DNA of 64,000 nt from an uncultured Acidobacteriota bacterium (GTDB lineage: Bacteria > Acidobacteriota > Polarisedimenticolia > J045): the NCBI GenBank assembly GCA_963702545.1, contig CAVPDB010000009.1, positions 199,743 through 263,742 of the forward strand, given 5' to 3'. The notes beneath the pieces were generated by a model. That model was not told the DNA's origin and made no database searches. It worked only from the letters and a program-made list of their open reading frames with translations. Below are positions 561 to 33,036 of this stretch, one piece after another. How positions within the stretch are numbered: position 1 is the stretch's first letter; every line of letters starts with the position of its first letter. The translations under genes were made by a program, and so were the position numbers.

Positions 561-566
561 GGCGGG

Positions 567-830: not shown

Positions 831-965
831 CGCGTCTCGACTCGCATGAAAGTACGGGCGATCCGCGGGAAGGGGGGCGTGGAATCGGCGGAATCGGCGG
901 GGTTTTTGCAGCAGCCGGGGACCGGGGGGCGGCCCGGGGGTGCGGGGCCGGGCCCCGGGACGATC

Positions 966-1055
966 TGGCGGAAGGGGTGGGATTCGAACCCACGGTACGG
1001 TTACCCGTACACCGGTTTTCGAGACCGGCGCCTTCAACCGCTCGGCCACCCTTCC
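966..1055 (-). tRNA. tRNA-Ser (anticodon CGA), encoded CCA
   Basis: The reverse complement folds as a cloverleaf: acceptor GGAAGGG/CCCTTCC, anticodon loop CTCGAAA, long variable arm GTACGGGTAACCGTAC, T-loop GGTTCGAATCC, 3' CCA. Confidence 0.9.
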
Positions 1056-1107
1056 AGAAGGCGCCGGGGATCGTAGCAGAGGCTGGTCGGAGCGTCACGG
1101 GAGGGGG

Positions 1108-2135: not shown

Positions 2136-2208
2136 GCACTCTCCCCGTCGAAAAACCCCAACTGCGGCCCAAGATAGCGAGGCGGGAGTCCCGGCACCAG
2201 CCGGGGTC

Positions 2209-3051: not shown

Positions 3052-4662
3052 TCAGCGCGGGGCGTCCGCGCGGCGCAGCCGCCGCCGCACCAGGAACCAC
3101 GCCATCGCGGCGACCCAGGCCGCGCCCCAGGCGCGGTCGATCAGGCCGCCCCAGCGGGTGTAGGGGGGCGGCCCGCCGTGCGGCACGGTCACCGGCCGGA
3201 TCAGCGTTCCTTCTTCCAGCCGGAAGCGTCCGGTCCGGGCGCCGCGCAGGTACTCCTCGACCCGCCCGTCGGGGGCGACGAAGGCCGACGGGCCGGTGTT
3301 GCCGACCCGCACCATCCCGACGCGGTTCTCCACCGCACGCAGGATGTTCACCCCCATCTGGTTGTTCGAGAGGGCCCAGCCCAGCCAGCCCTCCGAGCTG
3401 AGGTTGACGAAGAACTCCGCGCCGCGCCGGCGCGCCTCGCGGCCCAGTTCGGGGTAGCACGACTCGTAGCAGAGCGGCGTCCAGAACGTCCACTGGCGGC
3501 CGTCCGCCTGCAGCGCGAGCGGGATCGCGCCCGGCCCGGCGTAGCCGTTGGGCGCGTTGCGCCAGGCCGAGAGCGTGATCTCTGTCAGCCAGCGCCCCAG
3601 CGCCGGGAACTGGCGCTCGAGCCACGGGAACCCGCGGCGCTCGGTGAAGGGGAAGAGCACGACCTTGTCGTAGCGCCCGACGCGCTCGCCGGCGGGGTCG
3701 ATGATCATCGCGGTGTTGGTGGGGCGCCGGCCGTCCGGCCCGAAGTTCTGCGTCCCGAAGAGCACGGGCGTGCCGAGCGTCCGAGCCACCGCCGCGACGT
3801 TCTTCTCGTATTCCGGCCAGCGGTCGAGGTTGGCCAGGATCGAGTTCTCCGGCCAGGCGATCAGGTCGGCCGCGCCGCGCGGCACGGTCGCGAGCGTCTG
3901 CTGGACCGTCCCGGCCAGGACCTGCGGGGTGAGCTGGAACGAGTGCTCGAGCGCCGGTTGGACCACCGCGATCCGCGGCCCCGGCCCCTCCGCCACGCCG
4001 CCGATGCGGGCCGCGCCGTAGATGACCAGGAAGGCCACCGCGGCCGCGGCCAGCCCCGCGCCCCAGCGCAGCCGGCGCGCGTCGCCGGATCGCGGGCCGT
4101 CGAGCGCCCGCTTCGCGAGGTCCGCCAGCAGCCCCACCGGGATGGTCCAGAGGAAGGTGAGGCCGTAGGAGCCGACCAGATCGGCGGCCTGGATCAGCAC
4201 CGGGTAGCCGAAGAGAAAGGTCCCCACCTGGTACATGTTGTAGTTGCCCACCCCGAGGATCGCGCGGGTCCACTCCCCGGCCGCCATCGTCAGCGGCAGG
4301 ACCACGAACAGCGGCCAGCCCGAAACGCGGTGGAGCGACCAGGCCAGCAGCGACTGGACCACGTAGTGCAGCGTGATCACCGCCGGCAGCAGGGCCAGCG
4401 CGATCCAGCCGAACTTCAGCAGCGGCAGGTTGGCGACCCACATGAAGAGCAGCAGTCCGGGCAGGAAGCCGAGCACGGGGGCGCGCCAGCGGTCGATCAC
4501 CGCCGGCGCCATGAGCACGGCCCAGCCCAGCGCGAGCAGCGGACCCAGCGCCTCGTAGCGGGTGGCCGCCAGCAGCACCAGGCCGCCCGCGAGGGAGACG
4601 GCAAGGACCTCGGCGAGGCGGCGCAGGCGGGGAAGCGGCGTCGGGCCGGGGCTCGGGGACAT
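3052..4662 (-). CDS. lnt: Apolipoprotein N-acyltransferase
   Basis: 536-aa ORF with a multi-helix N-terminal membrane part and a C-terminal CN-hydrolase domain. Motifs: WPENS, YDKVVLFPFTE, LCYESCYP (catalytic Cys). Confidence 0.9.
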   Translation of the reverse strand: MSPSPGPTPLPRLRRLAEVLAVSLAGGLVLLAATRYEALGPLLALGWAVLMAPAVIDRWRAPVLGFLPGLLLFMWVANLPLLKFGWIALALLPAVITLHYVVQSLLAWSLHRVSGWPLFVVLPLTMAAGEWTRAILGVGNYNMYQVGTFLFGYPVLIQAADLVGSYGLTFLWTIPVGLLADLAKRALDGPRSGDARRLRWGAGLAAAAVAFLVIYGAARIGGVAEGPGPRIAVVQPALEHSFQLTPQVLAGTVQQTLATVPRGAADLIAWPENSILANLDRWPEYEKNVAAVARTLGTPVLFGTQNFGPDGRRPTNTAMIIDPAGERVGRYDKVVLFPFTERRGFPWLERQFPALGRWLTEITLSAWRNAPNGYAGPGAIPLALQADGRQWTFWTPLCYESCYPELGREARRRGAEFFVNLSSEGWLGWALSNNQMGVNILRAVENRVGMVRVGNTGPSAFVAPDGRVEEYLRGARTGRFRLEEGTLIRPVTVPHGGPPPYTRWGGLIDRAWGAAWVAAMAWFLVRRRLRRADAPR

Positions 4663-4666
4663 CCTC

Positions 4667-5944
4667 TCAGGCCTCCCAGCGCCGCAGCGCGAGGCAGGCG
4701 TTCGTGCCGCCGAAGCCGAAGCTGTTCGAGAGCGCCGTGCGGGCCTCCAGCGCGTTGTCCGGCTCGAGCGCCAGCTTCAGGTGCGCACACCGTTCGTCGA
4801 CCGTGTCGACGTTGATCGAGGGGGCCAGGAAGCCGCCCCGCAGCATCTGGATCGTGTAGATCGCCTCGAGGCTCCCGGCCGCCCCGACGGCGTGGCCGGT
4901 CGTCGACTTGGTCGAGGAGATCCAGGGCTGGCGCTCGCCGAAGACCGCCTGCATCGCCGTCGCCTCGGAGGGGTCGCCGGCCGGCGTCGAGGTCCCGTGG
5001 GCGTTGACGTAGTCGATCTCGTCCGCGCGCAGCCCGGCGTCGGCGAGCGCCTCGCGCATGACCTCGATCGCCCCGTCGGTCAGCGGCGCCACCATGTCGT
5101 TGCCGTCGGAGTTGGCGGCGAAGCCGACCAGTTCGGCCAGGATCGGCGCACCGCGCCGGCGGGCCGCGTCGAGATCCTCCAGCAGCAGGATTCCCGCGCC
5201 GCCGCTGATCACGAAGCCGTCGCGGTCGGCGTCGAAGGGGCGCGACGCGCGCTCGGGCCGATCGTTGAAGTCGCGCGAGAGCGCGTGCATCGCGTCGAAG
5301 GCCGCGGCCCGCGTCCAGTCCAACTCGTCGGCGGCGCCGGCCAGGATCCGCTCGTAGCGGCCGGTGCGGATCAGCAGTGCGGCCAGCGCGATCGCGTGCG
5401 AGCCGGTCGAGCAGGCCGACGAGACGCACCAGCTCTCGCCCCGCGTGCCGAGCGCGACGCTGACGTTGGCGGCGGCGGTCGAGGTCATGACCTGCGGGAC
5501 CGTGAAGGGGCTGACCCGCCGGGTCGACTGGAACTTCTCGAGCCCGGCGGCGCGCGCCCTCTCGGCCTCCTGCTCGACCTGCTTCAGCGCGTTGTAGTTG
5601 CGGATCGCCGAGCCGATCCCCGAGCCGATGATCACGGCGACCCGCGTCCCGCGGACCTCGGCCGGCTCGATCCCCGCGCCGGTCAGGGCCTCGTGCGTCG
5701 CGTAGAGCGCCATCCGCGACATGCTGGTCGCCGACTTCTCAACCTTGCGGGTCAGCAGCGGGGAGTCGGGCTCGGCCTCCGGCACGCCCGCGACCTGCGA
5801 GGCGAAGCCGATCCCGACCCATTCCGGCATGAATCGGACGCCCGAGCGGCCCGAACGGAGGGACTCCTCGATCGCCGCCAGGCCGGTGCCGATCGACGAG
5901 ACGGCCCCCATTCCGGTCACGACCACCCGTCGCAGCGACCCCAT
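4667..5944 (-). CDS. fabF: Beta-ketoacyl-ACP synthase (KAS II-like)
   Basis: Internal ATG at 5944 (MGSLRRVVVTGMGAVSS). Active-site CSTGSHAI, HGTSTPAGD and GHAVGAAG motifs. Stop lies 5 nt upstream of the lnt start. Confidence 0.9.
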   Translation of the reverse strand: MGSLRRVVVTGMGAVSSIGTGLAAIEESLRSGRSGVRFMPEWVGIGFASQVAGVPEAEPDSPLLTRKVEKSATSMSRMALYATHEALTGAGIEPAEVRGTRVAVIIGSGIGSAIRNYNALKQVEQEAERARAAGLEKFQSTRRVSPFTVPQVMTSTAAANVSVALGTRGESWCVSSACSTGSHAIALAALLIRTGRYERILAGAADELDWTRAAAFDAMHALSRDFNDRPERASRPFDADRDGFVISGGAGILLLEDLDAARRRGAPILAELVGFAANSDGNDMVAPLTDGAIEVMREALADAGLRADEIDYVNAHGTSTPAGDPSEATAMQAVFGERQPWISSTKSTTGHAVGAAGSLEAIYTIQMLRGGFLAPSINVDTVDERCAHLKLALEPDNALEARTALSNSFGFGGTNACLALRRWEA

Positions 5945-6103
5945 GCCACCCTCCGCGGCCCCCTGGCCAGGACCGGCATGATACCGACAGATCGTGCGTT
6001 CCGGTCCCAAGCTGGACAGCCCGGGGGGGCGGTATTAGACTCCCCCCTTCGGTCGTAAAGGCCACGGGCGGCGCCGGACGGCGCGCCCCGCAAGGAGTCC
6101 CAG

Positions 6104-6487
6104 ATGTCGACCAACCCGACCCAGACCAGCGAACCGGCCGGCGCCCCGGCCCCGGGCGGCGAGATGCTCGTGCTGACCCCGGCCGCGGTGAAGAAACTGC
6201 TCGTCTACCAGTCCGAGAACCCCGAGTTCCAGGGCAAGGCTTTCCGGATCTTCATCGAGGGCGGCGGCTGCTCCGGGTTCCGCTACGGCTTCGGCTTCGA
6301 TGACGCGTCGGAGGACGACTGGAGCTTCGAGGCCGGCGGCCTGAACGTGACCGTCGACCCGACGTCGATGCAGTACCTGCAGGGCGCGACCGTCGACTTC
6401 GTGGACGACCTGTCGGGCTCCGGGTTCCTCGTCAAGAACCCGAACGCCAAGACCTCCTGCGGCTGCGGGAGCTCTTTCGGCGGCTGA
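6104..6487 (+). CDS. erpA: Iron-sulfur cluster insertion protein, HesB/IscA/ErpA family
   Basis: 127-aa ORF with [17 protein letters not shown] and the C-terminal SCGCGSSF cysteine motif. Confidence 0.9.
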
Positions 6488-6511
6488 GCCGCCCCCCGCG
6501 CTGGACATCGC

Positions 6512-6548
6512 GAGGCCCCCGGGCGGTCGCCCGGGGGCCTCGTTTTTT
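6512..6548 (+). terminator. Rho-independent terminator after erpA
   Basis: GAGGCCCCCGGGCGGTCGCCCGGGGGCCTC stem-loop followed by TTTTTT. It sits between convergent genes. Confidence 0.65.
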
Positions 6549-6585
6549 GCAGCGGAACCAAGGAAAGAGGGAAGGAGCCAGGTCC

Positions 6586-7551
6586 TCACGCCCCGGTGTG
6601 GGCCGGGGCCGGTGGCGCGTGGGGGGCCACCGCGGGCGCGCCGTTGCCGCTCCAGTCGATCGGCCAGACCGGGACCTGGGCCCCGGCCGGCGCACCGCGC
6701 GCGGCGGCCAGCGCATGCTGCGCGGCGACCAGCAGCGCCTCGACCTCGGGCCACGGCCCGTTCTCGGGGATGGCGATTCCGGCCATCACCAGGTCGCGCC
6801 GCCCCACGCCGGCCTGAGTCGCGAGCACGGTGACGAGGCGCGAGACGGCGGGGCGCGCGTCGCGGCAGTGCGGCAGCAGGATCGCGACCCGCCGCGCGTC
6901 CCAGCGGCCGACCGAGTCCGACCCGCGGACCGCCTGCTTGATCGCGCGGCCGAGCCGGCGGCTCCAGCGATCGGGCTGCGCCAGGGCGACCAGCGGCAGC
7001 GACTCGGCCAGTTCGATCAAGAGCAGCGTCGCCGCCTCGCGGGCCTCCTCGGCCTCCGACAGCGCCTGCTCGAGCGTCGCGGTGAAGCCCTTGCGGTTGA
7101 GCAGGCCGGTGGCCTGGTCGTAGAGGTCGAGCCGGCGGATCCGGTCGGCCTGCGCGCGCACATCCCCCTCCCGGCGGGCCAGGCGCGAGCGGATCGACTC
7201 CGAGTCCTCCGCCAGGGTCTGCCAGAGGTGCAGCGTGCGGGCCAGGCCCCACGCGGTGAGCACGGCACCGACCAGAGCGAGTGCCGGGGCGACCCAGGGC
7301 TCCAGCCCCTCCGAGAGCCCCATCACCAGCGCCGCGGCCAGCAGCGTGAGGCCGCCCGCGAGCGCCAGCCGCGCGCTCCACGGCCGGCCGCGGCCGAGCC
7401 ACAGCACCAGGGCGACGCCGGTCAGGAAGGCGACCGCGCCGCCGGCGGCAAGCGAGGCGCGCTCCGAGCCCGGGAACAGGAAAGGGGCCGCCGCGGCGGC
7501 GGCCGTGACGGACGCCAGCGGAAGGTACGGACCTCCCCGCAGCCACTTCAT
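6586..7551 (-). CDS. Membrane protein with degenerate GGDEF (diguanylate-cyclase-like) domain
   Basis: Four or five N-terminal hydrophobic helices and a coiled linker, then DQATGLLNRKGF (start of the GGDEF fold). The signature position reads RWDARRV instead of R(Y/W)GGDEF. Confidence 0.75.
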   Translation of the reverse strand: MKWLRGGPYLPLASVTAAAAAAPFLFPGSERASLAAGGAVAFLTGVALVLWLGRGRPWSARLALAGGLTLLAAALVMGLSEGLEPWVAPALALVGAVLTAWGLARTLHLWQTLAEDSESIRSRLARREGDVRAQADRIRRLDLYDQATGLLNRKGFTATLEQALSEAEEAREAATLLLIELAESLPLVALAQPDRWSRRLGRAIKQAVRGSDSVGRWDARRVAILLPHCRDARPAVSRLVTVLATQAGVGRRDLVMAGIAIPENGPWPEVEALLVAAQHALAAARGAPAGAQVPVWPIDWSGNGAPAVAPHAPPAPAHTGA

Positions 7552-7850
7552 CGCTCAGGACTCCACACCCGCACGATCCCCCGACGGAACTAACGCAAAG
7601 TTCGTGCCCCGGACCGGGCGAACGCAAGCGGAACCGGGCGTTTGGTCCCGGACCGGGCGGGCAGGAGAGGGGTCCGACCCCCGCCGGAGCCGGTGGACGA
7701 GGAATGTCGCCAGGTGACGCGGAGGGGCAGCGGCGGGGGGTGGCGGGAGCGGGCGGCCCGGCGGAGAGCTGGTGGGGTGGGCGTGGGAGAGGGCGGCGGC
7801 CTCCGGGGGGGCCGGCGGGGCCGCGACCCGGGGCGCAGGCTCGGTGGGAC

Positions 7851-7939
7851 TGGTGCCGGAAGTGGGAGTCGAACCCACAAGGGGCGTGAGCCCCGGCGGA
7901 TTTTGAATCCGCTGCGTCTGCCGATTCCGCCATTCCGGC
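7851..7939 (-). tRNA. tRNA-Leu (anticodon CAA), encoded CCA
   Basis: Reverse complement: acceptor GCCGGAA/TTCCGGC, anticodon loop TTCAAAA, long variable arm, T-loop GGTTCGACTCC, CCA. Confidence 0.9.
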
Positions 7940-7957
7940 GCGGGTCAGCCCGTCATC

Positions 7958-8737
7958 TTAGCTCCGGCCCTGCAGCCGCCGCCGCCCGCGGGGCCCGCCG
8001 GTCACCGGATCCCCCAGCGCCTCCCGCAGCAGCGCCGTCGCCGCCGCCCAGGACCGCTGGTCGGCGTCCGGCTCGTAGAACAGCCCGCCGCGCGGGTCGC
8101 GGGGCAGTTCGTAGTTCGTGAAGCCGTGGCCGGCGCGACCGTAGACGACGAGCTGCCAGTCCGCGCCCGCGTCCTCCATCTCGCGCTGGAACGCCTGCAC
8201 GTGCTCGGCGCTGACCATCGGGTCGAGCACGCCGTGGAACGCGAGCACCCGCGCCTGCACCGCGCCGCGGGCGGCGCGCCGCGGCGTGTCGAGCAGCCCG
8301 TGGAAGCTGATCGCCGCGGCCAGGTCGGCGCCGTCGCGAGCCAGTTCCAGCGCCACGCCGCCGCCGAAGCAGTAGCCGAGCGCGGCGACCTCGCACCCGC
8401 GGACCAGCGGGCTGTCGGCCAGCCGCGCCAGCCCGGCCCGGGCCCGTCGGCGCAGGAGCGGGCTGTCGGCCACGAGCCGGTTCATCTCGCGGGCGGCCTC
8501 CTCGTTGGACTGCGGCCGCACGCCGCGGCCGTACAGATCGAGCGCGAAGGCGACGTAACCCAGCGCCGCCAGCGCGCGCGTTCGCTCCTCGACGAACGGG
8601 ACCAGCCCCTTCCACATGTGACAGACCAGCACGCCCGGGCGCGGCCAGGGGAGGGTGGGGTCGTACGCGGCGTAGCCCTCGAGCGGCAGGCCGCCGTGGG
8701 CGTAGAGCACGCGTTCGGTGCGGAGCGGGGCGCGCAT
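7958..8737 (-). CDS. Dienelactone hydrolase family protein
   Basis: Internal ATG at 8737 ([10 protein letters not shown]...). The GYCFGGG nucleophile elbow, HG...D and GHGF motifs are typical of DLH. The longer 462-aa ORF upstream is low-complexity. Confidence 0.85.
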
Positions 8738-8783
8738 GGGCTGGACCTCCGGCGGCGAGCCAACGCCGATCGTACAGCGACCG

Positions 8784-8857
8784 GTAGGGGCCGGCCTCCG
8801 TGCCGGCCCGCACGATCCGGGTCGCACCTTCGGGCCGGCACGGAGGCCGGCCCCTAC
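8784..8857. repeat. 27-bp perfect inverted repeat (20-nt loop) in a divergent intergenic region
   Basis: GTAGGGGCCGGCCTCCGTGCCGGCCCG (8784-8810) is the exact reverse complement of 8831-8857. Confidence 0.85.
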
Positions 8858-8974
8858 AGGAGGGCCGAGGCGGCGGGCTTGACGGCCTGCGCAACCGGTC
8901 TTAGGGTTTGGCGTGGAATCGTTCCAATCGAAAGTATCGGCCGCCGGGGGCGGACCCGGCGGCGGGAGGTTCCG

Positions 8975-9675
8975 ATGATCAAGCTGCGCAAGGCCGAGGA
9001 CCGCGGCCACGCCGACCACGGCTGGCTCGACACCTGGCACACCTTCTCGTTTGCCGACTACTACGACCCGGAACACATGGGCTTCCGCGCGCTGCGTGTC
9101 ATCAACGACGACGTCGTCGCGCCGGGCCGCGGCTTCGGGACCCACCCGCACCGCGACATGGAGATCGTGACCTACGTGCTGGAGGGGGCGCTGGCCCACA
9201 AGGACAGCATGGGCAACGCCTCGACCATCGTGCCGGGCGAGGTCCAGCGGATGAGCGCCGGGACCGGCGTGCTGCACAGCGAGTTCAACCACTCGAAGAC
9301 CGACCGGGTCCACCTGCTGCAGATCTGGATCCTGCCGGACGCGCACCGGGCTCGCGCCGTCCTACGAGCAGACCTTCTTCCCCGACGACGGAGAAGCGGG
9401 GCCGGCTGCGGCTGGTCGCCTCGCCCGACGGCGCGGACGGCTCGGTCACGATCCACCAGGACGCGCGGCTCTACGCCACGCTCCTGGAGCCGGGCCAGGA
9501 GGTGGCGCACGACCTGGCGCCGGGCCGGCACGCCTGGGTCCACGTCGCGCGCGGCAAAGCCAGCCTCAACGGGCAGCCGCTCGAAGCCGGCGACGGGGCC
9601 GCGATCAGCGCCGAGGAGCGGCTCGTGCTGCGCGGCGACGGCCGGGCCGAGGTCCTGCTCTTCGACCTGGCCTGA
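8975..9675 (+). pseudogene. Pirin family protein, reading frame broken twice (+1 near 9347 and +1 near 9390)
   Basis: RBS GGGAGGT, ATG at 8975. [32 protein letters not shown]...[12 protein letters not shown] is a cupin/pirin signature. [11 protein letters not shown] and then [25 protein letters not shown] continue in the two other frames. Confidence 0.85.
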
Positions 9676-9784
9676 CGGGGCCCCGCGCGCCCCGCCGCGC
9701 CCCGGGGCCGCCTCCCGGCGGCCCGGGGCGCGCCCGTCCCGGGTGCTAGATTCCTCCCTCGCCCCGCACCCGGAGCCCCGCCCG

Positions 9785-11058
9785 ATGCCGAAGAGCAAGG
9801 TCGCGATTCTCAAGACGACGCCGCGCACCGTCCTGTCCGACTACCACGAGCTGCTGAACCTGGCCGACTACCAGCAGGTCGTCGCGCGGGACGCCGACAC
9901 GGCGCTGAAGGTCAACATTTCCTGGCACTTCTTCTTTCCGGCCAGCTCGACCACGCCCTGGCAGCTCGAGGGCGTGATCCGGGCGATGAAGGCCGACGGC
10001 TACGACCCGAACCTGATCCACGCCTGCCACAACCGGACGGTCGTGATCGACGCCCGCCTGGGCGAGCGCGAGAACAAGCAGGTGAACGTGGTCGAGGCCC
10101 ACGGCCTGCGCAACGTCCACCTCTACGACGACGGGAACGAGTGGATCCCGGTCGGCGAGGCGGTGGGCGACCTGACGAAGAAGTTCCTCTGCCTGAACCA
10201 GGTCTATCCCGACGGGTTCATGATCCCGAAGCGCTTTCTCGGCGAGAACATCATCCACCTGCCGACCGTCAAGACCCACGTCTTCACCCACACCACCGGC
10301 GCGATGAAGAACGCCTTCGGCGGGCTGCTCAACGAGCGGCGCCACTGGACCCACCCGGTCATCCACGAGACGCTGGTCGACCTGCTGATGATCCAGAAGA
10401 AGATCCACCGCGGCGTCTTCGCGGTGATGGACGGGACCTTCGCCGGCGACGGGCCGGGGCCGCGCTGCATGCTGCCGCACGCCAAGAACGTGATCCTGGC
10501 CAGCGCCGACCAGGTCGCGATCGACGCCGTGGCCGCGAAGCTGATGGGCTTCGACCCGCTGTCGATCAAGTTCATCCGGCTGGCCCACGACGCGGGCCTG
10601 GGCTGCGGCGACCCGCGCGAGATCGAGATCGTCGGCGATGCGAGCCGCGGCCGCCGAGAACTGGCACTTCGACGGGCCCTACAAGAAGATGACCTTCGCC
10701 TCGCGGATGCAGCACCAGGATCTACTGGGGCCCGCTCAAGGGGCCGATCGAGTGGTCGCTCAAGACGGTGCTCGCCCCCTGGGCCTACGTCGCGAGCGTG
10801 GTCTACCACGACAGCCTCTGGTACCCGCTCAAGGCGAAGAGCGCGATGCGTGCGGCGCTGGCCTCCGACTGGGGCCGGCTCTTCCAGAACTGGGAGACGC
10901 TGACGCCCGACGCGCAGGGCTTCCCGCAGGTCGGAGACGCGGCGGCCGAACTGAAGACCACGGGTGCGGCCGCCTTCGCGCGCTCGCTGGGGATCCTCGG
11001 GACCTGCGTGCGCGAGGCGCCTGAGTTCGCTGCGCGGCGCCGGCGGGCGGCGCGCTGA
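9785..11058 (+). pseudogene. DUF362 domain protein, frame broken twice (near 10643 and 10718)
   Basis: Starts [11 protein letters not shown]... The central [22 protein letters not shown] motif is typical of DUF362. The C-terminus continues as [21 protein letters not shown] and then [31 protein letters not shown] in shifted frames. Confidence 0.8.
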
Positions 11059-11061
11059 CGG

Positions 11062-12980
11062 ATGGACCGGGGCCGCCGCGAGAGGTTCGGGCTGGGGAGC
11101 TTTACGCTGCTGTTCGGGGCGCTGGCGGCGGTCTCGCCGCTCCTCACCGACGCCAACCCGTGGACCCTGATCGGCCTGCTGCTCGCCGTCACCGGCGCGA
11201 TGCAGGCCTTCCACAGCTTCCGCCGCGTCGACCTGGCGGAACGCCGGTCGGCCTACTGGTCCGGCCTGACCTCGATCTCGGCCGGGCTGCTGGTGCTGGC
11301 GGCCCCGCTGCTGGTCGCGCAGGGGCTGGTGCTGCTGCTGGCCGGGATGTTCGTGGTCGAGGCGGCGCGCAAGGTCGTCGCCGTGGCCCGCGGGACCGAC
11401 GACCGGGCGGAGCGGCTGCGCGGCGTTGCCGGCGCGGCGGCGAACGCTCTGCTCGCGATCGTGATTCTCGCGCTGGGGCGTCGCTCGCCCGAGTGGGCGA
11501 TCGCGATCACGGCGGGCCTTCGCATCGTCATGGCCGGCTGGAGCATGGTCACCGCCCCGGTCCACGCGCTCCGCGAGGCGGGCGAGGCCGTGCTGGCCGA
11601 CCTGGACCTGCCCGACGACCCGCGCGCTCGGGCGGCGGCCGAGGTGGTGGTCGAGGCCGAAGCCCGCCGGCAACCGATCGACCGCGGGTGGATCGTCGCC
11701 TTCATCCTCACCCTGTTCGCGATCCACGTCGGGCGGATGCAGGTCGACTGGACGCTCGTCGGACTGATCTCGCCGCTGTTCGCGGTGCTCGGCGACGTGC
11801 TGATGGCGCTGCTCATCGCCTATGGCCTGGTGATTCCGGCCCGCTCGCTGCTGCGTCGCCTGGTGCGTCCCTTGGCGCAGCGGACGACGAGCCGGATGCT
11901 CGCCACTGCCGCCGGCAGCGTTGCCGCGCCCGGCCTGCTCGGCTGGCTGCGCCGGGCCTGGCTGCGCCAGCGGCTGCACGATGAGGTCCAGTCACGCTTC
12001 GCCCGCTACTCGGTTCCGGCCGCGCTCGTTTACGGGCTCCAGACCGGCCTGCCGATCGTCGCGATCCTGGTCGCGACCGTTCCGGTCTGGGGGATGAGCT
12101 GGTACTTCGACTCGGAGAACTGGGCGGCCGGGATCTACAACTCCTGGGCCGAGCACCGCACCGACACCTGGCGCGCGGCGATGGTCCGCGCGGTCGAGTC
12201 GACGGTACCGCCGCCGGCCGGCTTGCCGTCGCGGTTCGCGGTCGCGCCCGACGGCGCGACCGGGAGCGCCGACTTCTCCTTCCTCGTGATCGGCGACACC
12301 GGGGAAGGGGACCCCAGCCAGCGCGTGCTGCAGGACCGCTACCAGTCGCTCGCGGCGCGCGAGGACGTGAAGTTCGTCGTGATCTCCTCCGACGTGATCT
12401 ATCCGACCGGCGCGATGGTCGACTACGAGACCAACTTCTGGCTCCCCTTCAAGGGGGTGACCAAGCCGGTCTACGCGATCCCGGGCAATCACGACTGGTA
12501 CGACGCGCTGGAGGGGTTCAACGCGACCTTCCTGGCCGAGCCCGCGGCGCGCGCGGCGATCGAGGCCCGCGTCGTCGCCGATGGCCGGCTCTCCGGGACC
12601 ACGCCACGGCGAATCGACGCGCTGCTTCGGCAGGCGGCGTGGCTGCGCTCGCAGTACCGCGTTCCGACCGGCCTTCAGCAGGCCCCGTTCTTCGAGGTGC
12701 AGGCCGAGCGCTTCGCCCTGATCGCGGCCGATACCGGCGTCGTGAAGAAGCTCGACGCCGCGCAGCTGGCCTGGTTCAAGGACGCGCTGGCGCGGGCCCG
12801 CGGGAAGTTCCGGATGGTGATCCTGGGCCACCCGATCTACGCCGGCGGCGACGACGGGACCGACGGGTACGGGCCGTTCGCCGCGCTGCACCGGCTGCTG
12901 CGGCAGGAGGGGGTCGAGGTCGTGATGGCCGGTGACACCCACGATCTCGAGTACTACCGCGAGGAATACGCTGGCCCGGT
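11062..12980 (+). CDS. Membrane-anchored metallophosphoesterase (calcineurin-like), 3'-truncated at a sequence breakpoint
   Basis: About 330 aa of multi-helix membrane region, then GDTGEGD, PGNHDWY, ILGHPIY and AGDTHDLEYY phosphoesterase motifs. Family similarity ends near EEYAGPV, where the sequence becomes homologous to nt ~20,770 of this window. Confidence 0.8.
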
Positions 12981-13898
12981 GAAGTCCTGGATAACGTCAT
13001 TCGCAACAACGGCGGGAGCGGGATCTTCATCGACTCGAATTTTGGTAACCTGGTGCATGGGAATCAGATCTACAGCAACGCCGATGACGGCGTGACCATC
13101 GTAGGCGGCGACGCGTCCTACCACATTCAAATCACGCAGAACGATATCCACGACAACGGGGACCAGTCGATCGACCTGAACGACGACGGAGCGTCGGAGA
13201 ACGACCTGGGCGACCCGGATGCAGACGCCAACGGCACCCAGAATTACCCTGTGTTGGTGCGGGCGCGGCCGATTTCCGGCGGTGCTGTTGTGGAGGGGTA
13301 TCTCAACAGCATTCCAGGCGAGGAATATGGTATCGAGTTGTTTGGTGGCGCCAAGTGTGGCCAGGGCCCGCAGGCGTTCTTGCCAAGCATCCCATACACG
13401 ATCAGCCTGCCGACGGGCACAGGCTTTTTCAGCGTGACGGTCATGCAGCCGGTGGCGCTGGGGACCGCCATCCAGGCGACGGCGACGAGGGGGCCGTTTA
13501 TTGGAAGTAGTGAGACCTCGGAGTATTCTGACTGCGTCATTGCGGGACCGGGCAACGACTCATGGCCGAAGGCACTGCGGACAAACGTGCCGGCGAGCGC
13601 AGCAGCCGTCAGTGCAGCGGAGGCGGCGGAGGTGGCCCAGGCGTGCTGGCGTGACCGAGGTGGACGCCACGACCGGCGTGGTGACCATGACGCAGTACAT
13701 CGATTCGCTGGGGCAGTCGCGCTGGTTCAAATTCAAGATCCGGCCCAATAGCCAGCTCATCGTGACGTTGACGGGGCTGCCGAGGAAGGGGCTGCCAGCG
13801 AACTACGACCTGACATTGTACAAGGACATTGCGCCGAGTATCAAATTCGGCGGATCCGAGAACGCGAGTGATTTGACGCTCATATGCGGCAGTTTCGA

Positions 13899-14050
13899 CG
13901 TCGGCGTTTGCTCCGTCGTCATTTGCGCCGTCGTTGTTTGCGCCGTCGTCGTTTGCGCCGTGCGTCGTTTGCGCCGTCGTCGTTTGCGCCGTCGTCGTTT
14001 GCGCCGTCGTCGTTTGCGCCGTCGTCGTTTGCGCCGTCGTCGTTTGCGCC
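13899..14050. repeat. 15-bp tandem repeat GCGCCGTCGTCGTTT (~10 units; APSSF / RRLRR / VCAVV in the three frames)
   Basis: Direct reading of the sequence. One unit carries an extra g near 13962. Confidence 0.9.
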
Positions 14051-17000
14051 GGCGGCGTACAGTCCTGACTCCTACAGCTCGTCGTCGTACAGCCCATGGG
14101 CATTCGACCAGGACGCATTCAGTCGGCGGCTTCAGTCGCCAGTGCCTACAACCCATCCACCTTCGACCCCAAGTCGTTCACGGGCGCACAGACTTGAGCC
14201 TGGTGGGGGTTTCGGCGTTCGAGGGAACGTCGAGAGAGGGGTCTGATCATGAATACGTGGCTGAACGACGGGGACTTCTACGTACGGGTGCGAGGGCGTG
14301 ACGGTGCGTTCAGCCTGGATGCGCCGTTCGCCCTGACGGTGCAACTGGAGCCGGGCCCCTGTGCGAATGCGTTCGACACGCCGCTGCCGGCGACGTCGCT
14401 GGCGCCGCAGGCTGGCGGATTCAAGAGCATCATCCTGGTCGATCGGGCCCGCATGAACGCGGCGTACGGTAAGCCCAGGTCAACGCCATGCTGGCGAAGT
14501 TGAAGAACTCCGGCTGCGCCCCGAAGTGAACGGCGGGATCCTCGACATAAGCCAGGATGCGCGGGTGGCGGCTGCGAACCAGCGGGCGGACCAATACTAT
14601 GTGTGTCCGTACGGGAAGAACGTCGTGGCGGAGTCGATCAAGGCGATCGTGGATGCGTATCGCAGGGTGAACCCGCTGGAGTACGTGGTCATCGTGGGCG
14701 GGGACAACAGCATCCCCTTCTTTCGCTACCCGGACAACGCACTGTTGGGACCCGAGTCGGACTACTTCCCGCCGGTGCTGGACTTCAGCTCATCGCAGGC
14801 GGGGCTGCGGCTGAACTACGTCCTCAGCCAGGATGGCTACGGCGCATCTGAGTTTCTATCTCTCAATGGCACGGAATTTCCGGTACCCGACCTGGCGGTG
14901 GGGCGCCTGGTGGAGACGCCTGGGGACATTCTGAAGCAGCTTGGATGCCTACTTCCTGACGACCAACGGGGTGGCGCCGGCGCCGCAGGCCGCACTGGTA
15001 ACCGGCTACGACTTCATGGAGGACGTCGCCCAGGCGGTGAAAGGTGAGCTCGGCACGGCACTAGGGGCGGGCAAGACAGTCGATACGCTGATCACGCCGA
15101 ATACGGTGTCACCGCTGGACCCGCAGTCGTGGACTGCGTTTCAGTGGACGAGAAGCTGCACAGTCGGCGCTACGATCTGGTGTTCCTGGCGGGGCATTTC
15201 GCGGCTGACAATGCGCTGGCGGCGGACTTCCGACGGCACTGCTGCCGACCGACATACTGTCGTCGACGGTGGACATGCGGAATGCCCTCTTCTATAGCAT
15301 GGGTTGCCATTCCGGGTACAACGTCGTGAACGAGCATCGTATCCCCAACGTGACCTCGGAACTGGACTGGGCGTCGGCGTTTGCGGAGAAGGGTGTGACC
15401 TGGATCGGCGGGACCGGCTTCCAGTACGGCGACACGGAGTTCATCGAGTACAGTGAGCGGCTCTACCTGGACTTCACCGCAACCTGCGCTACGAGGATCC
15501 GGGCGATCCGGCGGGGGCGCCCGTGGCCATCGGCAAGGCGCTGGTGCGGGCCAAGCAGCGCTATCTGGCACAGACGCCGGCGATGAAGGGGATCCACGAG
15601 AAGTCGCTGCTGATCCCGACAATCTATGGGCTGCCGATGTTCAGCATCGACTTCCAGGGTGCGGCGTGGACGCCGGCGGCGCGCCGGTCGCTCTTCACCA
15701 GCACGCGCCGCCGGTCGTGACTGGTCTGCCCGGCTCGGCGCTGCAGATGCGCCAGACGGACATCACGGTGACGCCGGTGACGACCGAGACGCTGAAGACG
15801 CTGAAGGACGTGGACACGGGGCAGCCGGTGGTGGCGAGTTACCTGCGCGGCCGGGACGGGGCGCTGACCGAATCCGTCGGAGCCGACGCTGCCGGTGGAG
15901 GGGGTGAACCTCAGCGCGCCGGATAACGCCTTGCGCGGCGTTGGGTTCCGCGGCGGTGACTTCTGTGACGTGCCGAACATCATCCCGCTGACGGGTGCGC
16001 CGGCGACGGAGATTCGGGGCGTCTACACGCCGTTCTACAGCAAGACCTGGTTCCCCTTACAGCCGTGGAGCGTCAACTACTACGACGTGCTGGGGCAGGG
16101 GCCGGGGGCGTGGGGGACGCGGCTGTACGTCATGCCGGCGCAGCACCGGTCGACCGGGCCCGGGACGTTGACCAGCATCCGGCGGCAGTTCAGCGAGATG
16201 GTGTTCCGGCTCTTCTACAGCGCAAACACCTCGTCCATCGGGGAAGGTAGCGCCAAGAGTACCGCCGGCCCTGGCCGACACGCCGACCATCGTGACGGTG
16301 AGCACGCCGGAGGCGCCGGACAAGGCTGCGCTTCCTGTTAGCGTGTGGTGGGGAATCCGGCGGCGGGGGTGCACGCGGTGTGGGTCACATGGACACGAAA
16401 CGGCGTTGCGTGCAGCCAATGGCAGTCGATCGATCTCGTCGAGAGCAGCCAGGATACGACGAAGTGGGGAGGCGTGCTGACCCTGCCGGCGGGCGTCGCA
16501 CCGAAGGATGTGCGTTTCATCGCACAGGCGGTGAATGGCGTGGGAGTCGTTGGGCTGTCCAACAACATGGGCCGGTACTACGGCGACGCGGGCAGCCTGG
16601 CGTCGGAGCTCCTGCCGACGACGCTGACCCTGGAGCCGCTGGCCACCACCATGGGTGCGTTCTCCACCAAGGCGACGTTCGCCGCCGTGCTGCGGGATGG
16701 GAGCAACAATCCCGTGGCAGGCCGTACCGTCGTCATCGGCTTGGGTGCACAGGAGCAGTTTGCGGTGACGGATGGTGCGGGTCGGGCGGCGGTGACCATG
16801 CCGCTCCTGCTGCAGTCGGGCGCCTATCCGGTCCACGCGTCGTTTGACGGCGACGCTCAGTACACGCCATCGTCGGCGAGCAGCCCCGACCAGTTCACGG
16901 TGACACGCCAGGGGACGGCGATCCAGGTGGATCCGGTTGTGGCTGTCAGTGCTGCCGCGGGGTCATGGGTCGCGGCGGCCAATGACCCCGCGGCAGCGCA

Positions 17001-17221
17001 GTTCATGGCGACGCTCTTCGACGTGGATGGCGTGCGCCTGTTAGCCCAGAGTGTCTTCTTCGAATTCTCGGGGGGTGGGCAGGTCATCACCAAGCCGGTC
17101 CAGACCAATCTGATGGGCGAGGCCATTGTGACGGTTCCGGCGCTGCCGCCGGGCGCCTACATGCTGACCGTCATGTTCACCGGCACCGGGTCTTACTTGC
17201 CGGCCATCGTGACATTCGGCG

Positions 17222-19790
17222 TTAAACAGTCGCAGGAAATTAGCTTTGCGCCGCTGCCGGACAAGCGGCTGAACGATCCGCCGTTCAGCGTGTCGGCGAC
17301 GGCATCGTCGGGGCTGCCGGTGAGCTTCGCCAGCACGACTGCTGCGGTCTGTACGGTGACGGGAAACAGCGTGACGTTACAGGGGGTCGGCAGTGCAGCA
17401 TTGTGGCATCACAGGCTGGCAACGATGCGTTCAGCGCTGCGCCGAACGTGGTGCGCACCTTCACGGTGGCCGCCGCCGCGCTGCAGTCCCAGACGATCGA
17501 TTTCACGCCGCTGCCGGACAAGCGGCTGAACGATCCGCCGTTCAGCTTGTCGGCGACGGCATCGTCGGAGCTGGCGGTGAGCTTCGCCAGCACGACACCT
17601 GCAGTCTGTACGGTGACGGTAAACACCGTGACGTTACAGGCGGTCGGCCAGTGCAGCATTGTGGCATCACAGGCTGGCAACGGTGCGTTCAGCGCTGCGC
17701 CGAACGTGGTGCGCACCTTCACGGTGGCCGCCGCCGCGCCGCAGTCCCAGACGATCGATTTCGGGCCGCTGCCGGACAAGCGGCTGAACGATCCGCCGTT
17801 CAGCTTGTCGGCGACGGCATCGTCGGAGCTGGCGGTGAGCTTCGCCAGCACGACACCTGCGGTCTGTACGGTGACGGGAAACACCGTGACGTTACAGGGG
17901 GTCGGCCAGTGCAGCATTGTGGCATCGCAGGCTGGCAACGATGCGTTCAGCGCTGCGCCGAACGTGGTGCGCACCTTCACGGTGGCCGCCGCCGCACCGC
18001 AGTCCCAGACGATCGATTTCGGGCCGCTGCCGGACAAGCGGCTGAACGATCCGCCGTTCAGCTTGTCGGCGACGGCATCGTCGGGGCTGGCGGTGAGCTT
18101 CGCCAGCACGACACCTGCAGTCTGTACGGTGACGGGAAACACCGTGACGTTACAGGCGGTCGGCCAGTGCAGCATCGTGGCATCGCAGGCTGGCAACGAT
18201 GCGTTCAGCGCTGCGCCGGACGTGGTGCGCACCTTCACGGTGGCCGCCGCCGCGCTGCAGTCCCAGACGATCGATTTCGGGCCGCTGCCGGACAAGCGGC
18301 TGAACGATCCGCCGTTCAGCGTGTCGGCGACGGCATCGTCGGGGCTGCCGGTGAGCTTCGCCAGCACGACACCTGCAGTCTGTACGGTGACGGGAAACAG
18401 CGTGACGTACAGGGGGTCGGCCAGTGCAGCATCGTGGCATCACAGGCTGGCAACGATGCGTTCAGCGCCGCGCCGAACGTGGTGCGCACCTTCACGGTGG
18501 CCGCCGCCGCGCCGCAGTCCCAGACGATCGATTTCGGGCCGCTGCCGGACAAGCGGCTGAACGATCCGCCGTTCAGCGTGTCGGCGACGGCATCGTCGGG
18601 GCTGCCGGTGAGCTTCGCCAGCACGACTGCTGCGGTCTGTACGGTGACGGGAAACAGCGTGACGTTACAGGGGGTCGGGCAGTGCAGCATTGTGGCTTCA
18701 CAGGCTGGCAACGATGCGCTACAGCGCCGCACCGAACGTGGTCCGCACCTTCACGGTGGCCGCTGCCGCGCTGCAGTCCCAGACGATCAATTTCGGGCCG
18801 CTGCCGGACAAGCGGCTGAACGATCCGCCGTTCAGCTTGTCGGCGACGGCATCGTCGGGGCTGGCGGTGAGCTTCGCCAGCACGACTCCTGCGGTCTGTA
18901 CGGTGACGGGCAAACACCGTGACGTTACAGGCGGTGGGCCAGTGCAGCATTGTGGCTTCACAGGCTGGCAACAGTGCGTACAGCGCTGCGCCGAACGTGG
19001 TCCGCACCTTCACGGTGGCCGCTGCCGCGCGGCAGTCCCAGACGATCAATTTCGGGCCGCTGCCGGACAAGCGGCCGAGCGATCCGCCGTTCAGCCTGTC
19101 TGCGACGGCATCGTCGGGGCTGGCGGTGAGCTTCGCCAGCACGACCCCTGCAGTCTGTACGGTGACGGGCAACACCGTGACGCTGCTGGCGGTGGCCAGT
19201 GCAGCATTCTGGCTTCGCAGGCCGGCGACAGTGCCTACACGCCGCACCGAACGTGGTCCGCACCTTCATGGTGGCCGCCGCCGCGCATCAGTCCCAGACG
19301 ATCGGTTTCGGGCCGCTGCCGAACAAGCGGCTGAGCGATCCGCCGTTCAGTGTGTCGGCGACGGCATCGTCGGGGCTGACGGTGAGCTTCGCCAGCACGA
19401 CTCCTGCGATCTGCACGGTGACGGGCAACAGCGTGACGTTACTGGCGGTGGGCCAGTGCAGCATTCTGGCATCACAGGCTGGCAACAGTGCCTACAGCGC
19501 CGCGCCGAACGTGGTCCGCACCTTCATGGTGGACACCGCGCTGCAATCCCAGACGATCGATTTCGGGCCGTTGCCCGACAAGCGGCCGGACGATCCACCG
19601 TTCAGCTTGTCTGCGACGGCATCATCGGGGCTGGCGGTGAGCTTCGCCAGCACGACTCCTGCGGTCTGCGCGGTGACGGGCAACACCGTGACGCTACTGG
19701 CGGTCGGCCAGTGCAGCATCCTGGCTTCGCAGGCAGGCAACAGTGAGTTCGGCGCCGCACCGAACGTGGTCCGCACCTTCGTGGTGTCGA
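17222..19790. repeat. Tandem array of ~10 x 261-bp units (87-aa Ig-like module SQTIDFGPLPDKRLNDPPFS.SATASSGL.VSFASTTPAVCTVTGN.VTLQ.VGQCSIVASQAGN.AFSAAPNVVRTFTV)
   Basis: CAGTCCCAGACGATCGATTTC recurs at a 261-bp period (about 17484, 17745, 18006, 18267, 18528, 18789...). Units are roughly 90% or more identical by eye. Confidence 0.9.
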
Positions 19791-20151
19791 ACGGTCAGAC
19801 ATGCTACCTGCCGATCATGTCGGAGCGTAGCATGCTACTGCCGGTCATCGAGGTGAGTCCGAGGCCGCTTGACCGCCGGCCTATCCGGCGATCGCTTCTT
19901 CCGGAAACGGAACAGATGAGTCGCCGCCTGTGCCTGCCGAGCGGCGGTGGTAGACTGTGGTGCCAACTTCGCGGCTGGAGCCCGGCAGATGGTTGAGATC
20001 GAGCTGTGCTCTGCAATGCTCCCCGGTAGTGTCGTACATCACTGTTTGGCTGTCGACGTGGTGTATAAGACGGATGGGGATTCGTCCGCTGGACGGATCG
20101 TGGGGATTGAGCCTTGGCCGTCGCCAGGGAAAGAAATCGAGGAGACCTGAC

Positions 20152-33023: not shown

Positions 33024-33036
33024 ACTGAGGGACGCC

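What the first reader, a model, noticed from the sequence alone, without database searches (positions are those of the whole stretch)
12940..13010. Hard breakpoint: a metallophosphoesterase ORF runs directly into the middle of a beta-helix surface-protein gene, with a composition shift
The phosphoesterase reading frame (..AGDTHDLEYYREEYAGPV) loses family similarity at about 12,978.

From 12,981 (GAAGTCCTGGATAACGTC...) the sequence is colinear with nt ~20,770 onward of this same window, which lies about 200 codons inside copy B of the giant protein. Both genes are therefore truncated at one point, and neither is flanked by a stop or intergenic spacer.

Hand counts on sample lines give about 67-82% GC to the left and 60-68% to the right. 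AT-rich intergenic regions and TA modules occur only on the right.

This is either an assembly chimera of two organisms or bins, or a real rearrangement/deletion joint.
Basis: partly seen in the sequence, partly recalled or inferred. Interest (0 to 1): 0.6.

Follow-up and report, generated by a model that had tools for sequence, protein, structure and literature searches.

The report
Chimeric assembly joint in a MAG contig
The abrupt gene-into-gene breakpoint is real in the sequence, but it is almost certainly an assembly error that glued 55 kb of DNA from a Chloroflexales-like bacterium onto the end of a contig from an unrelated 73 %-GC bacterium, so it is a data-quality warning and not biology.

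Summary
The DUF308-metallophosphoesterase gene (11062-) matches its orthologues only up to base 12979. From 12981 the sequence is colinear with 20761 onward, which lies 203 codons inside the second giant beta-helix gene. One unassigned base separates the two parts. There is no stop codon, spacer or microhomology.

GC drops from 73.5 % to 64.9 % at the joint and stays low to the contig end, 54,688 bp away.

- **Left side:** it matches same-genus genomes at 84-95 % nucleotide identity, and two matches end exactly at 12979. Those relatives continue with 150 more codons, then nrfH and nrfA.
- **Right side:** the 19 kb tested has no match in 20 relatives. Its hyp cluster and an arsenic-type cluster are closest to Chloroflexales MAGs.

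The same assembly carries other terminal artefacts. C17 ends in archaeal-type DNA although its native continuation lies on C1. C12 has a foreign tail although its continuation lies on C23. C10 has a 52 %-GC tail that cuts the Lhr helicase gene. C1 begins with a 23.6-kb foldback palindrome. In two relatives, the native ends of C9 and C10 lie 11-15 kb apart.

Verdict: assembly chimera (about 0.92). A real inter-phylum insertion remains possible at about 0.05. Interest is low.

The parts
1..12979 (.). Native segment of the 73 %-GC host genome. It holds a histidine kinase 3' end, tRNA-Ser, squalene/phytoene synthase, an Lnt-like CN hydrolase, FabF, an Fe-S protein, a GGDEF protein, tRNA-Leu, a stretch with no gene confirmed here (about 8-9.7 kb; an earlier unchecked note places a pirin gene there), a DUF362 gene and the 5' part of the metallophosphoesterase gene.
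   Evidence: It matches same-genus genomes G001-G004 colinearly at 84-95 % nucleotide identity. The DUF362 gene is identified through its orthologues (PF04015 on L089 and L090; tblastn). Pfam hits are, tRNAs, and GC is 73.5 %.
11062..12979 (+). First ~640 codons of a DUF308 (HdeD)-metallophosphoesterase gene. The 3' ~150 codons are missing.
   Evidence: Pfam Metallophos spans residues 406-628. The G002 orthologue is 89 % identical and 790 aa. The JGI homologue P0003 is 91 % identical and 790 aa, and about 120 relatives are almost all 740-810 aa. Matches end at 12979.
11062..13095 (+). Chimeric ORF of 677 aa. Codons ~641-677 are an out-of-frame reading of the foreign beta-helix gene.
   Evidence: In the 5.8-billion-protein collection this product is its own cluster, with 1 member on 1 contig, this one.
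12980..12980 (.). The joint. One base (T) matches neither the native orthologue nor copy B. It is a blunt join with no microhomology, repeat, adapter, stop or spacer.
   Evidence: Three-way alignment and the sequence itself.
12981..64000 (.). Foreign block at 64.9 % GC. It continues to the contig end (C9:267410), 54,688 bp in all, and is Chloroflexales-like chromosomal DNA.
   Evidence: The 19 kb tested (12981-32000) has no match in 20 relatives. HypD is 80-87 % identical to Chloroflexia, Chloroflexus and Chloroflexaceae MAGs, and the hyp cluster is syntenic with L005. Positions 54.8-57.9 kb are colinear with the same Chloroflexia MAG at 73-80 % nucleotide identity. None of 30 ORFs scanned against Pfam matched an integrase, transposase or relaxase family; seven matched no family.
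12981..19996 (+). Copy A of a giant secreted beta-helix / Ig-like surface protein gene. It is 5'-truncated, lacking 203 codons including the start and the signal anchor, and has many frame changes.
   Evidence: Beta_helix and NosD hits lie just after the joint, and Big_3_5 and Big_1 hits at 16342-17526. Colinearity with copy B is shown and the frame switches.
17227..19750 (+). About 10 tandem ~258-nt (86-aa) modules, present in copy A only.
   Evidence: the repeat finder families D1 and D2, spacing 255-259. The A/B homology ends at 17221/24980.
20152..25100 (+). Copy B, the full-length paralogue. It starts at the ATG at 20152 and has an in-frame TAG at 20512. Its 3' end is approximate because of frame changes.
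   Evidence: The Beta_helix hit is in 20515-20955.
37967..45100 (-). hypA-hypB-hypC-hypD-(1.2 kb insert)-hypE-hypF cluster of the foreign block, used here as the taxonomic marker.
   Evidence: Pfam HypF and HypD hits and synteny with Chloroflexia MAG L005. The host genome has its own HypD on C13, 46 % identical, as in all same-genus relatives.

Best explanation
The joint at window 12979/12981 (C9:212721/212723) is an assembly chimera. DNA from two different organisms in a metagenome was joined end to end in one contig.

The left side is the host genome of this MAG, at about 73 % GC. The right 54.7 kb is a chromosomal fragment of a Chloroflexales-like bacterium at about 65 % GC.

The likely mechanism is inferred, not shown. 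The assembly comes from noisy long reads. The native contig reached a dead end inside a strain-variable region (the phosphoesterase-nrfHA cassette). The same process gave other contigs of this assembly foreign tails, and gave C1 a foldback palindrome.

Neither truncated gene reflects the biology of either organism.
For: **Shown for this joint**
1. The join is blunt, with one unassigned base and no repeat, stop or spacer, and it cuts both genes.
2. GC steps from 73.5 % to 64.9 % exactly at the joint and stays low to the contig end. This is the lowest 50-kb window in the genome, 5.7 SD below the mean. The tetranucleotide signature also shifts.
3. The left 12,979 bp match four same-genus genomes colinearly at 84-95 % nucleotide identity. 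The matches of G002 and of JGI contig L089 end exactly at 12979.
4. Those two relatives continue with 150 more codons of the gene, then nrfH and nrfA. A third relative (L090, 71 %) also has the full-length 781-aa gene, followed by different genes.
5. The 19 kb to the right of the joint have no match in any of 20 relatives.
6. Right-block genes are closest to Chloroflexia, Chloroflexus and Chloroflexaceae MAGs: HypD at 80-87 % aa with a syntenic hyp cluster, and a second colinear cluster at 73-80 % nucleotide identity in the same MAG. The host has its own HypD on C13, 46 % identical, like all same-genus relatives.
7. None of 30 right-block ORFs scanned matched an integrase, transposase or relaxase family. 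The recognised genes are ordinary chromosomal genes, and seven ORFs matched nothing.

**Shown for the rest of the assembly**
8. C17 ends in 17.6 kb of 43-52 % GC DNA with archaeal-type genes: isopentenyl-phosphate-kinase-like AA_kinase, AcnX, UbiA and Trm1. Its native continuation lies on C1, with a 2.5-kb overlap at 98 %.
9. C12's native match ends at about 261,681-261,684. Its continuation lies on C23, and 4 kb of 54-60 % GC DNA follows on C12.
10. C10 ends in 17.4 kb of about 52 % GC DNA. That joint removes the DEAD N-terminus of Lhr helicase, which is intact in G004.
11. C1:1-23622 is its own reverse complement at 97.4 %, a foldback artefact.
12. In G003 and G004, the native end of C9 and the native end of C10 lie 11 and 15 kb apart on one contig. 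The two contigs are therefore native neighbours that were each capped by different foreign DNA.

**Literature**
13. Inter-phylum and inter-domain chimeric contigs are a documented error class of long-read metagenome assemblers. They are recognised by sudden shifts in GC, coverage and gene taxonomy (bioRxiv 10.1101/2025.04.22.649783).
Against: - The defining evidence, clipped reads and a coverage step at the joint, is missing.
- The native continuation of C9 (the phosphoesterase 3' end, nrfH and nrfA) is not found anywhere in this 81.5 %-complete assembly. For C9 itself, unlike C17 and C12, the chimera is inferred from relatives and by analogy.
- The native ends of C9 and C10 are neighbours. 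This is also what one would see if a single large foreign segment had really replaced the 11-15 kb between them.
- The sequencing technology and the assembler are unknown to me. Noisy long reads are inferred from the pervasive indels, the 24 long contigs, the foldback and the error-rich overlapping contig ends.
Confidence: 0.92

Rival explanations
1. The joint is a real genomic junction. A large piece of foreign DNA (at least 55 kb, Chloroflexales-derived) entered the host chromosome by illegitimate recombination. It replaced the 3' end of the phosphoesterase gene, nrfHA and the following 11-15 kb up to the Lhr helicase gene. The contig simply ends before the other boundary.
For: - The locus is variable within the genus. 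The phosphoesterase-nrfHA-methyltransferase cassette is present in G000, G002 and L089 but absent at the same site in G001, G003 and G004.
- The C9 and C10 native ends flank one and the same 11-15 kb interval in relatives, as expected for a replacement.
- The missing native interval is nowhere else in the assembly.
- Internal lower-GC regions that are flanked by native DNA exist elsewhere in the genome (C7 20-30 kb, C16 120-140 kb).
Against: - The two foreign tails that would form one island have unrelated compositions: 65 % against 52 % GC, with a tetranucleotide correlation of 0.45.
- None of 30 scanned right-block ORFs matched an integrase, transposase or relaxase family, and there is no direct repeat or host tRNA at the joint.
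- The foreign gene is cut mid-domain with no microhomology.
- The content is ordinary chromosomal DNA, including a second hyp cluster redundant with the native one.
- All four strongly foreign blocks in the assembly are terminal and none is internal.
- For two of them the native continuation lies on another contig, and one is archaeal-type.
- The assembly also contains a foldback palindrome.
Confidence: 0.05
2. The joint is an artefact, but of a different origin. Two separately assembled contigs were concatenated without an N spacer by a later scaffolding, gap-closing, bin-refinement or contig-extension step, not through a chimeric read inside the assembler.
For: The joint is perfectly blunt and falls at arbitrary positions in both genes, as contig ends do. 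Several contigs show the same terminal pattern.
Against: - Scaffolders normally insert Ns, and there are none in the genome.
- The foldback at the start of C1 and the error-rich overlapping contig ends (C17/C1, C7/C22, C12/C23) point to single-read artefacts at the assembler level.
- These tools cannot distinguish the two origins, and the consequence for the finding is the same.
Confidence: 0.15

Closest known systems
Inter-phylum / multi-domain chimeric contigs in long-read metagenome assemblies (Trigodet et al. 2025, bioRxiv 10.1101/2025.04.22.649783)
   Same: There is a sudden shift of GC content and gene-level taxonomy inside one contig, and sequences of distinct phyla are merged (on C17 of this assembly, bacterial with archaeal-type DNA). 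Indel-broken genes and false repeats or duplications occur in the same assemblies.
   Different: That work identifies chimeras by read clipping and coverage, which could not be examined here. The assembler and read type of this MAG are unknown to me.
Foldback (palindromic) chimeric long reads, in which template and complement strands are read as one molecule. This rests on my own knowledge, not on a paper read here.
   Same: C1:1-23622 is its own reverse complement at 97.4 %. This is the expected footprint of such a read when it is used to extend a contig end, and it shows that single-read artefacts entered this assembly.
   Different: The joint under study is a heterologous join between two organisms, not a foldback.
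Genomic island / integrative element insertion
   Same: A block of deviating GC and foreign gene taxonomy lies next to native DNA at a locus that varies between strains.
   Different: No integrase or recombinase family was found, and there is no attachment-site repeat and no tRNA target at the joint. No second boundary is present. Both the host gene and the incoming gene are cut mid-ORF, and the cargo looks like an ordinary chromosome segment.

Membership tests
Chimeric contig (misjoin of two populations in a metagenome assembly) | Abrupt change of base composition and k-mer signature at one point | tested here: met
   GC changes from 73.5 % to 64.9 % at 12980. The flanking 500 bp are 72 % and 60 % GC. 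The tetranucleotide correlation of the right block to native DNA is 0.90, against 0.99-1.00 among native pieces.
Chimeric contig (misjoin of two populations in a metagenome assembly) | Different taxonomic affinity of the genes on the two sides | tested here: met
   The left matches same-genus genomes at 84-95 % nucleotide identity. The 19 kb tested on the right has no match in 20 relatives, and the best matches of right-block genes are Chloroflexales MAGs.
Chimeric contig (misjoin of two populations in a metagenome assembly) | A native continuation different from the one in the contig exists | tested here: met
   G002 and the JGI contig L089 (94 % nucleotide identity) continue past 12979 with the rest of the gene, then nrfH and nrfA. 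This continuation was not found in the same assembly for C9. For C17 it was found on C1, and for C12 on C23.
Chimeric contig (misjoin of two populations in a metagenome assembly) | Read clipping and/or a coverage step at the joint, with few or no spanning reads | not testable with these tools
Chimeric contig (misjoin of two populations in a metagenome assembly) | Recurrence of structural artefacts in the same assembly | tested here: met
   Foreign tails occur on C10, C17 and C12. C1 has a 23.6-kb foldback. Several contig ends overlap with many errors.
Genomic island / integrative element | Recombinase (integrase or transposase) and/or transfer genes in the block | tested here: not met
   None of 30 right-block ORFs scanned against Pfam matched such a family; seven matched no family. 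The scan was not exhaustive, because frameshifted genes and the last 3.7 kb of the contig were not scanned.
Genomic island / integrative element | Defined boundaries: attachment-site direct repeats, often a tRNA target, and a return to native DNA | tested here: not met
   The joint is blunt and lies inside two ORFs with no repeat. The nearest host tRNA is 5 kb away. The block never returns to native composition before the contig end.
DUF308 (HdeD)-metallophosphoesterase family (the truncated left gene) | N-terminal DUF308 membrane region, a Metallophos domain and a conserved ~150-aa C-terminal extension, total ~780-790 aa | tested here: not met
   DUF308 and Metallophos are present. The C-terminal ~150 aa, present in the listed relatives (almost all 740-810 aa), are replaced by 37 out-of-frame foreign codons. 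As assembled, this is a truncated member.

The most novel reading that the evidence does not exclude
The junction is real. A soil bacterium with a 73 %-GC genome recently acquired at least 55 kb of unameliorated Chloroflexales chromosomal DNA, including a complete hyp hydrogenase-maturation cluster and two giant surface-protein genes. The DNA entered by end-joining-type illegitimate recombination at a strain-variable locus and replaced nrfHA and its neighbours.
Probability: 0.04. Interest if true: 0.6.

Novelty: not a real feature. Interest (0 to 1): 0.06.

Why it matters
It matters as quality control, not as biology.

**Sequence that does not belong to the host organism**
- About 55 kb of this contig (C9:212,723-267,410).
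- About 17 kb of C10.
- About 18 kb of C17, which is archaeal-type.
- About 4 kb of C12.
- One 11.8-kb arm of the C1 palindrome is a false duplication.

Standard completeness and contamination scores did not flag this (contamination 2.25 %).

**Consequences for other notes on this window**
Every feature described to the right of 12,980 belongs to a Chloroflexales-like organism. This covers the giant beta-helix paralogues, the STAND cyclases, the hyp cluster, the arsenic-type genes and the patatin lipase. None of them should be interpreted together with the left-hand genes or attributed to the host lineage.

The 'truncated' phosphoesterase and the 5'-truncated copy A are not pseudogenes of either organism.

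Tried and rejected
- **Missing native piece:** tblastn of the orthologue's C-terminal 150 aa, NrfH and NrfA against the whole assembly found nothing. The direct proof obtained for C17 and C12 is therefore not available for C9.
- **Other pieces of the donor in the assembly:** blastn of the 54.7-kb block against all contigs gave only its own internal repeats.
- **Donor's intact copy A in public data:** a search with the N-terminal 246 aa of copy B returned only the window's own fragment.
- **Error density as a coverage proxy:** the N50 of GC3-supported ORFs is lowest in the genome just right of the joint (210 aa, against a median of 413). This is confounded by the repetitive giant genes, so I use it only as a hint.
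- **C12 breakpoint:** I first took the GC step at C12:260,792 as a joint. Relatives show that native homology continues to about 261,681, so the true joint is about 0.9 kb further on.
- **C17 joint:** I first read it as truncating TrpF (Pfam PRAI from profile position 38). Comparison with C1 shows TrpF is complete there but frameshifted on C17. The joint lies at the end of the neighbouring SGNH-hydrolase gene.
- **Left-side ORFs:** my first choice for Pfam were wrong-frame ORFs typical of high-GC DNA, and they gave 0 hits. I repeated the scan with GC3-selected frames.
- **Naming the host phylum:** Earlier notes of this scan call it Acidobacteriota, and one calls it Anaeromyxobacteraceae. This is untested here.
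Full report
**1. What is in the sequence**

The window is C9:199,743-263,742 of a 3.95-Mb, 24-contig genome. An ORF at 11062..13095 (677 aa) encodes a DUF308 membrane region followed by a calcineurin-like metallophosphoesterase domain (Pfam Metallophos, residues 406-628).

A three-way alignment of the joint, the same-genus orthologue (G002) and copy B of the giant gene gives the following picture:
- The window follows the orthologue through ...GAATACGCTGGCCCGG, ending at 12979.
- The window follows copy B from GAAGTCCTGG..., starting at 12981, which pairs with 20761.
- A single T at 12980 matches neither.

There is no stop codon, spacer, repeat or microhomology.

Positions 12981-17221 are colinear with 20761-24980 at 88.1 % identity (4,280 columns, 99 gaps). 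Copy B begins at the ATG at 20152, with a hydrophobic anchor. Copy A therefore lacks its first 203 codons.

**2. Composition**

All 24 contigs have 71-75 % GC. Within C9, GC is 73.8 % up to the joint and 65.0 % for the remaining 54,688 bp, right to the contig end. The 500 bp on either side of the joint are 72 % and 60 % GC.

This is the lowest 50-kb GC window of the genome, 5.7 SD below the mean. The block's tetranucleotide profile correlates 0.90 with native DNA, against 0.99-1.00 between native pieces.

**3. Taxonomic affinity of the two sides**

*Left side.* The 12,979 bp match all four same-genus genomes colinearly at 84-95 % nucleotide identity. The G002 match (C242:1-2605) ends exactly at base 12979. 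An independent JGI metagenome contig (L089, 94 % identity) also ends its match at 12979.

Both of these relatives continue with about 150 more codons of the phosphoesterase, then nrfH (Cytochrom_NNT) and nrfA (Cytochrom_C552). A third relative (L090, 71 %) also has the full-length 781-aa gene after DUF362, but different genes follow it. Among the 120 closest homologues almost all are 740-810 aa. The window's 677-aa product is a singleton found on this contig only.

*Right side.* The 19 kb immediately right of the joint have no match in any of 20 relatives. The right-hand HypD is 80-87 % identical to Chloroflexia, Chloroflexus, Chloroflexaceae and Oscillochloridaceae MAGs. The whole hyp cluster is syntenic with the best of them (L005). 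A second cluster (54.8-57.9 kb: ACR3-type transporter, ArsP-type permease with thioredoxin, ArsR) is colinear with another contig of the same Chloroflexia MAG at 73-80 % nucleotide identity.

The host genome has its own HypD on C13. It is 46 % identical to the right-hand one, exactly like the HypD of all four same-genus relatives.

Thirty right-block ORFs were scanned against Pfam. Those with hits are ordinary chromosomal genes: MgtC, a desaturase, MscS, hypA-F, CoA-enzyme activase, MalT/LuxR and STAND regulators, a patatin lipase, a GMC oxidoreductase and an acyl-AMP ligase. Seven matched no family, and none matched an integrase, transposase or relaxase family.

**4. The same assembly has other terminal artefacts**

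A genome-wide scan showed that every block of strongly deviating composition sits at a contig end.

- *C17.* Native homology to relatives stops at 178,986. The contig then runs 17.6 kb through 43-52 % GC DNA that encodes an isopentenyl-phosphate-kinase-type AA_kinase, aconitase X, a UbiA prenyltransferase and Trm1. This is an archaeal-type gene set. The native continuation exists on C1: C17:176,448-178,986 equals C1:11,821-9,294 at 98 %. C1 goes on with the SGNH hydrolase gene that should precede TrpF.
- *C12.* Native homology stops at about 261,681-261,684 and continues on C23:4-390. On C12 it is followed by 4 kb of 54-60 % GC DNA.
- *C10.* Native homology stops at 155,271, and 17.4 kb of about 52 % GC DNA follow. 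That joint removes the roughly 165-residue DEAD-box N-terminus of Lhr helicase, which is intact in G004.
- *C1.* Positions 1-23,622 are their own reverse complement at 97.4 %, a foldback palindrome.
- *Contig ends.* Several ends overlap each other with 2-10 % differences (C7/C22, C17/C1, C12/C23).

Together these features indicate a noisy long-read assembly whose contig ends rest on very few reads. That is an inference.

**5. C9 and C10 are native neighbours**

In G004, C9:209,432-210,798 and C10:155,271-151,917 (reversed) map 15 kb apart on one contig. In G003 they map 11 kb apart. The true chromosome therefore runs from the left side of this window, through the rest of the phosphoesterase gene, nrfHA and about 11-15 kb more, into the Lhr gene of C10.

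In the assembly both ends are capped instead by foreign DNA of two unrelated compositions: 65 % and 52 % GC, with a tetranucleotide correlation of 0.45.

The interval is strain-variable. The phosphoesterase-nrfHA-methyltransferase cassette is present in G000, G002 and L089 and absent in G001, G003 and G004. That variability is a plausible reason for the assembly to break there.

**6. Interpretation**

The best explanation is an assembly chimera (confidence about 0.92).

*Shown:*
- a blunt heterologous joint;
- a composition step and a taxonomy step at the same base;
- a different native continuation in close relatives;
- a terminal position in the contig;
- recurrence of the same artefact, twice with the native continuation present in the same assembly and once across domains.

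*Inferred:* the cause is a chimeric long read or a false graph edge at a dead end. This error class is documented for long-read metagenome assemblers, together with indel-broken genes and false repeats (bioRxiv 10.1101/2025.04.22.649783).

*Not shown:* read clipping and a coverage step at the joint.

**7. Rival explanations**

A real replacement of the 11-15 kb interval by a large foreign segment would also explain why the C9 and C10 joints flank one interval, and why the interval is absent from the assembly. Several points argue against it:
- the mismatch between the two foreign tails;
- the lack of any mobility gene or boundary signature;
- the mid-ORF cut in the incoming gene;
- the chromosomal nature of the cargo;
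- the demonstrably artefactual tails of C17 and C12.

I give it about 0.05. Whether the artefact arose inside the assembler or in a later concatenation step cannot be decided here, and it does not change the verdict.

**8. Consequences**

Everything right of 12,980 in this window, and on to C9:267,410, should be attributed to a Chloroflexales-like organism. This includes the two giant beta-helix/Ig-like surface-protein paralogues and their repeats, the STAND cyclases, the hyp cluster and the arsenic-type genes.

The truncated phosphoesterase and the truncated copy A are products of the misjoin. The finding is not a biological feature, and its interest is low except as a contamination flag for this MAG.

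Noticed in passing
G000 contig C1:1-23,622 (outside the window): The first 23.6 kb of C1 are their own reverse complement (97.4 % identity, hinge near 11,814). This is a foldback palindrome that is very likely an artefact of one long read, so one 11.8-kb arm is a false duplication.
   Followed up: partly
G000 contig C17:178,987-196,561 (outside the window): This is a 17.6-kb terminal block of 43-52 % GC with archaeal-type genes (isopentenyl-phosphate-kinase-like AA_kinase, aconitase X, UbiA prenyltransferase, Trm1, a tRNA-Thr), joined to bacterial DNA. The bacterial continuation lies on C1 (2.5-kb overlap at 98 %). It is an inter-domain chimeric contig.
   Followed up: yes
G000 contig C10:155,271-172,670 (outside the window): This is a 17.4-kb terminal block of about 52 % GC. 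It holds a tRNA-Asp 650 bp from the joint, an acyl-CoA synthetase-like gene, a nitroreductase-like gene, an M20 peptidase-like gene and three ORF6N-like paralogues. The gene names other than the tRNA were read off the translations and not checked. The joint removes the DEAD-box N-terminus of the native Lhr helicase. In G003 and G004 this native end lies 11-15 kb from the native end of C9.
   Followed up: yes
G000 contig C12:~261,685-265,670 and C23:4-390 (outside the window): C12's homology to relatives ends at about 261,681-261,684 and continues on the start of C23 (93 % over 388 bp). On C12 itself 4 kb of 54-60 % GC DNA follow. This looks like another terminal misjoin.
   Followed up: partly
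window 41,400-42,550 (- strand): hypD and hypE are separated by about 1.2 kb that is absent from the Chloroflexia MAGs compared. The hypD ORF reads on for about 150 codons past the normal HypD end into this insert. The extra 148 residues have no Pfam hit. This could be a lost stop, an indel or a small inserted gene.
   Followed up: no
window 11,062-12,979 and relatives G001-G004, L089: The DUF308-phosphoesterase / nrfH / nrfA / methyltransferase cassette (about 5.3 kb) is present after the DUF362 gene in G000, G002 and JGI contig L089. It is absent at the same site in G001, G003 and G004, so nitrite-ammonifying capacity seems to be a strain-variable insertion in this genus.
   Followed up: partly
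window 8,900-62,600: Frame changes without stop codons are frequent on both sides of the joint. Examples are the DUF362 gene at about 10,640-10,720, read in three frames against its orthologue, and many switches in copies A and B. This is consistent with uncorrected long-read indel errors. The N50 of GC3-supported ORFs is lowest in the genome at C9:220-240 kb.
   Followed up: partly
window 20,512-20,514: There is an in-frame TAG in copy B, 120 codons after its start, with the beta-helix domain continuing in the same frame behind it. It is either a substitution error or real decay of copy B.
   Followed up: no
The A/B homology ends exactly where the array starts (17,221 / 24,980).
   Followed up: no
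G000 contigs C7:330,778-333,050 / C22:1-2,289 and C14:1-2,521 / 1,671-4,188: There is an unmerged contig-end overlap (97.4 %) and a terminal tandem duplication (97.2 %). These are further signs that contig ends in this assembly are unreliable.
   Followed up: no
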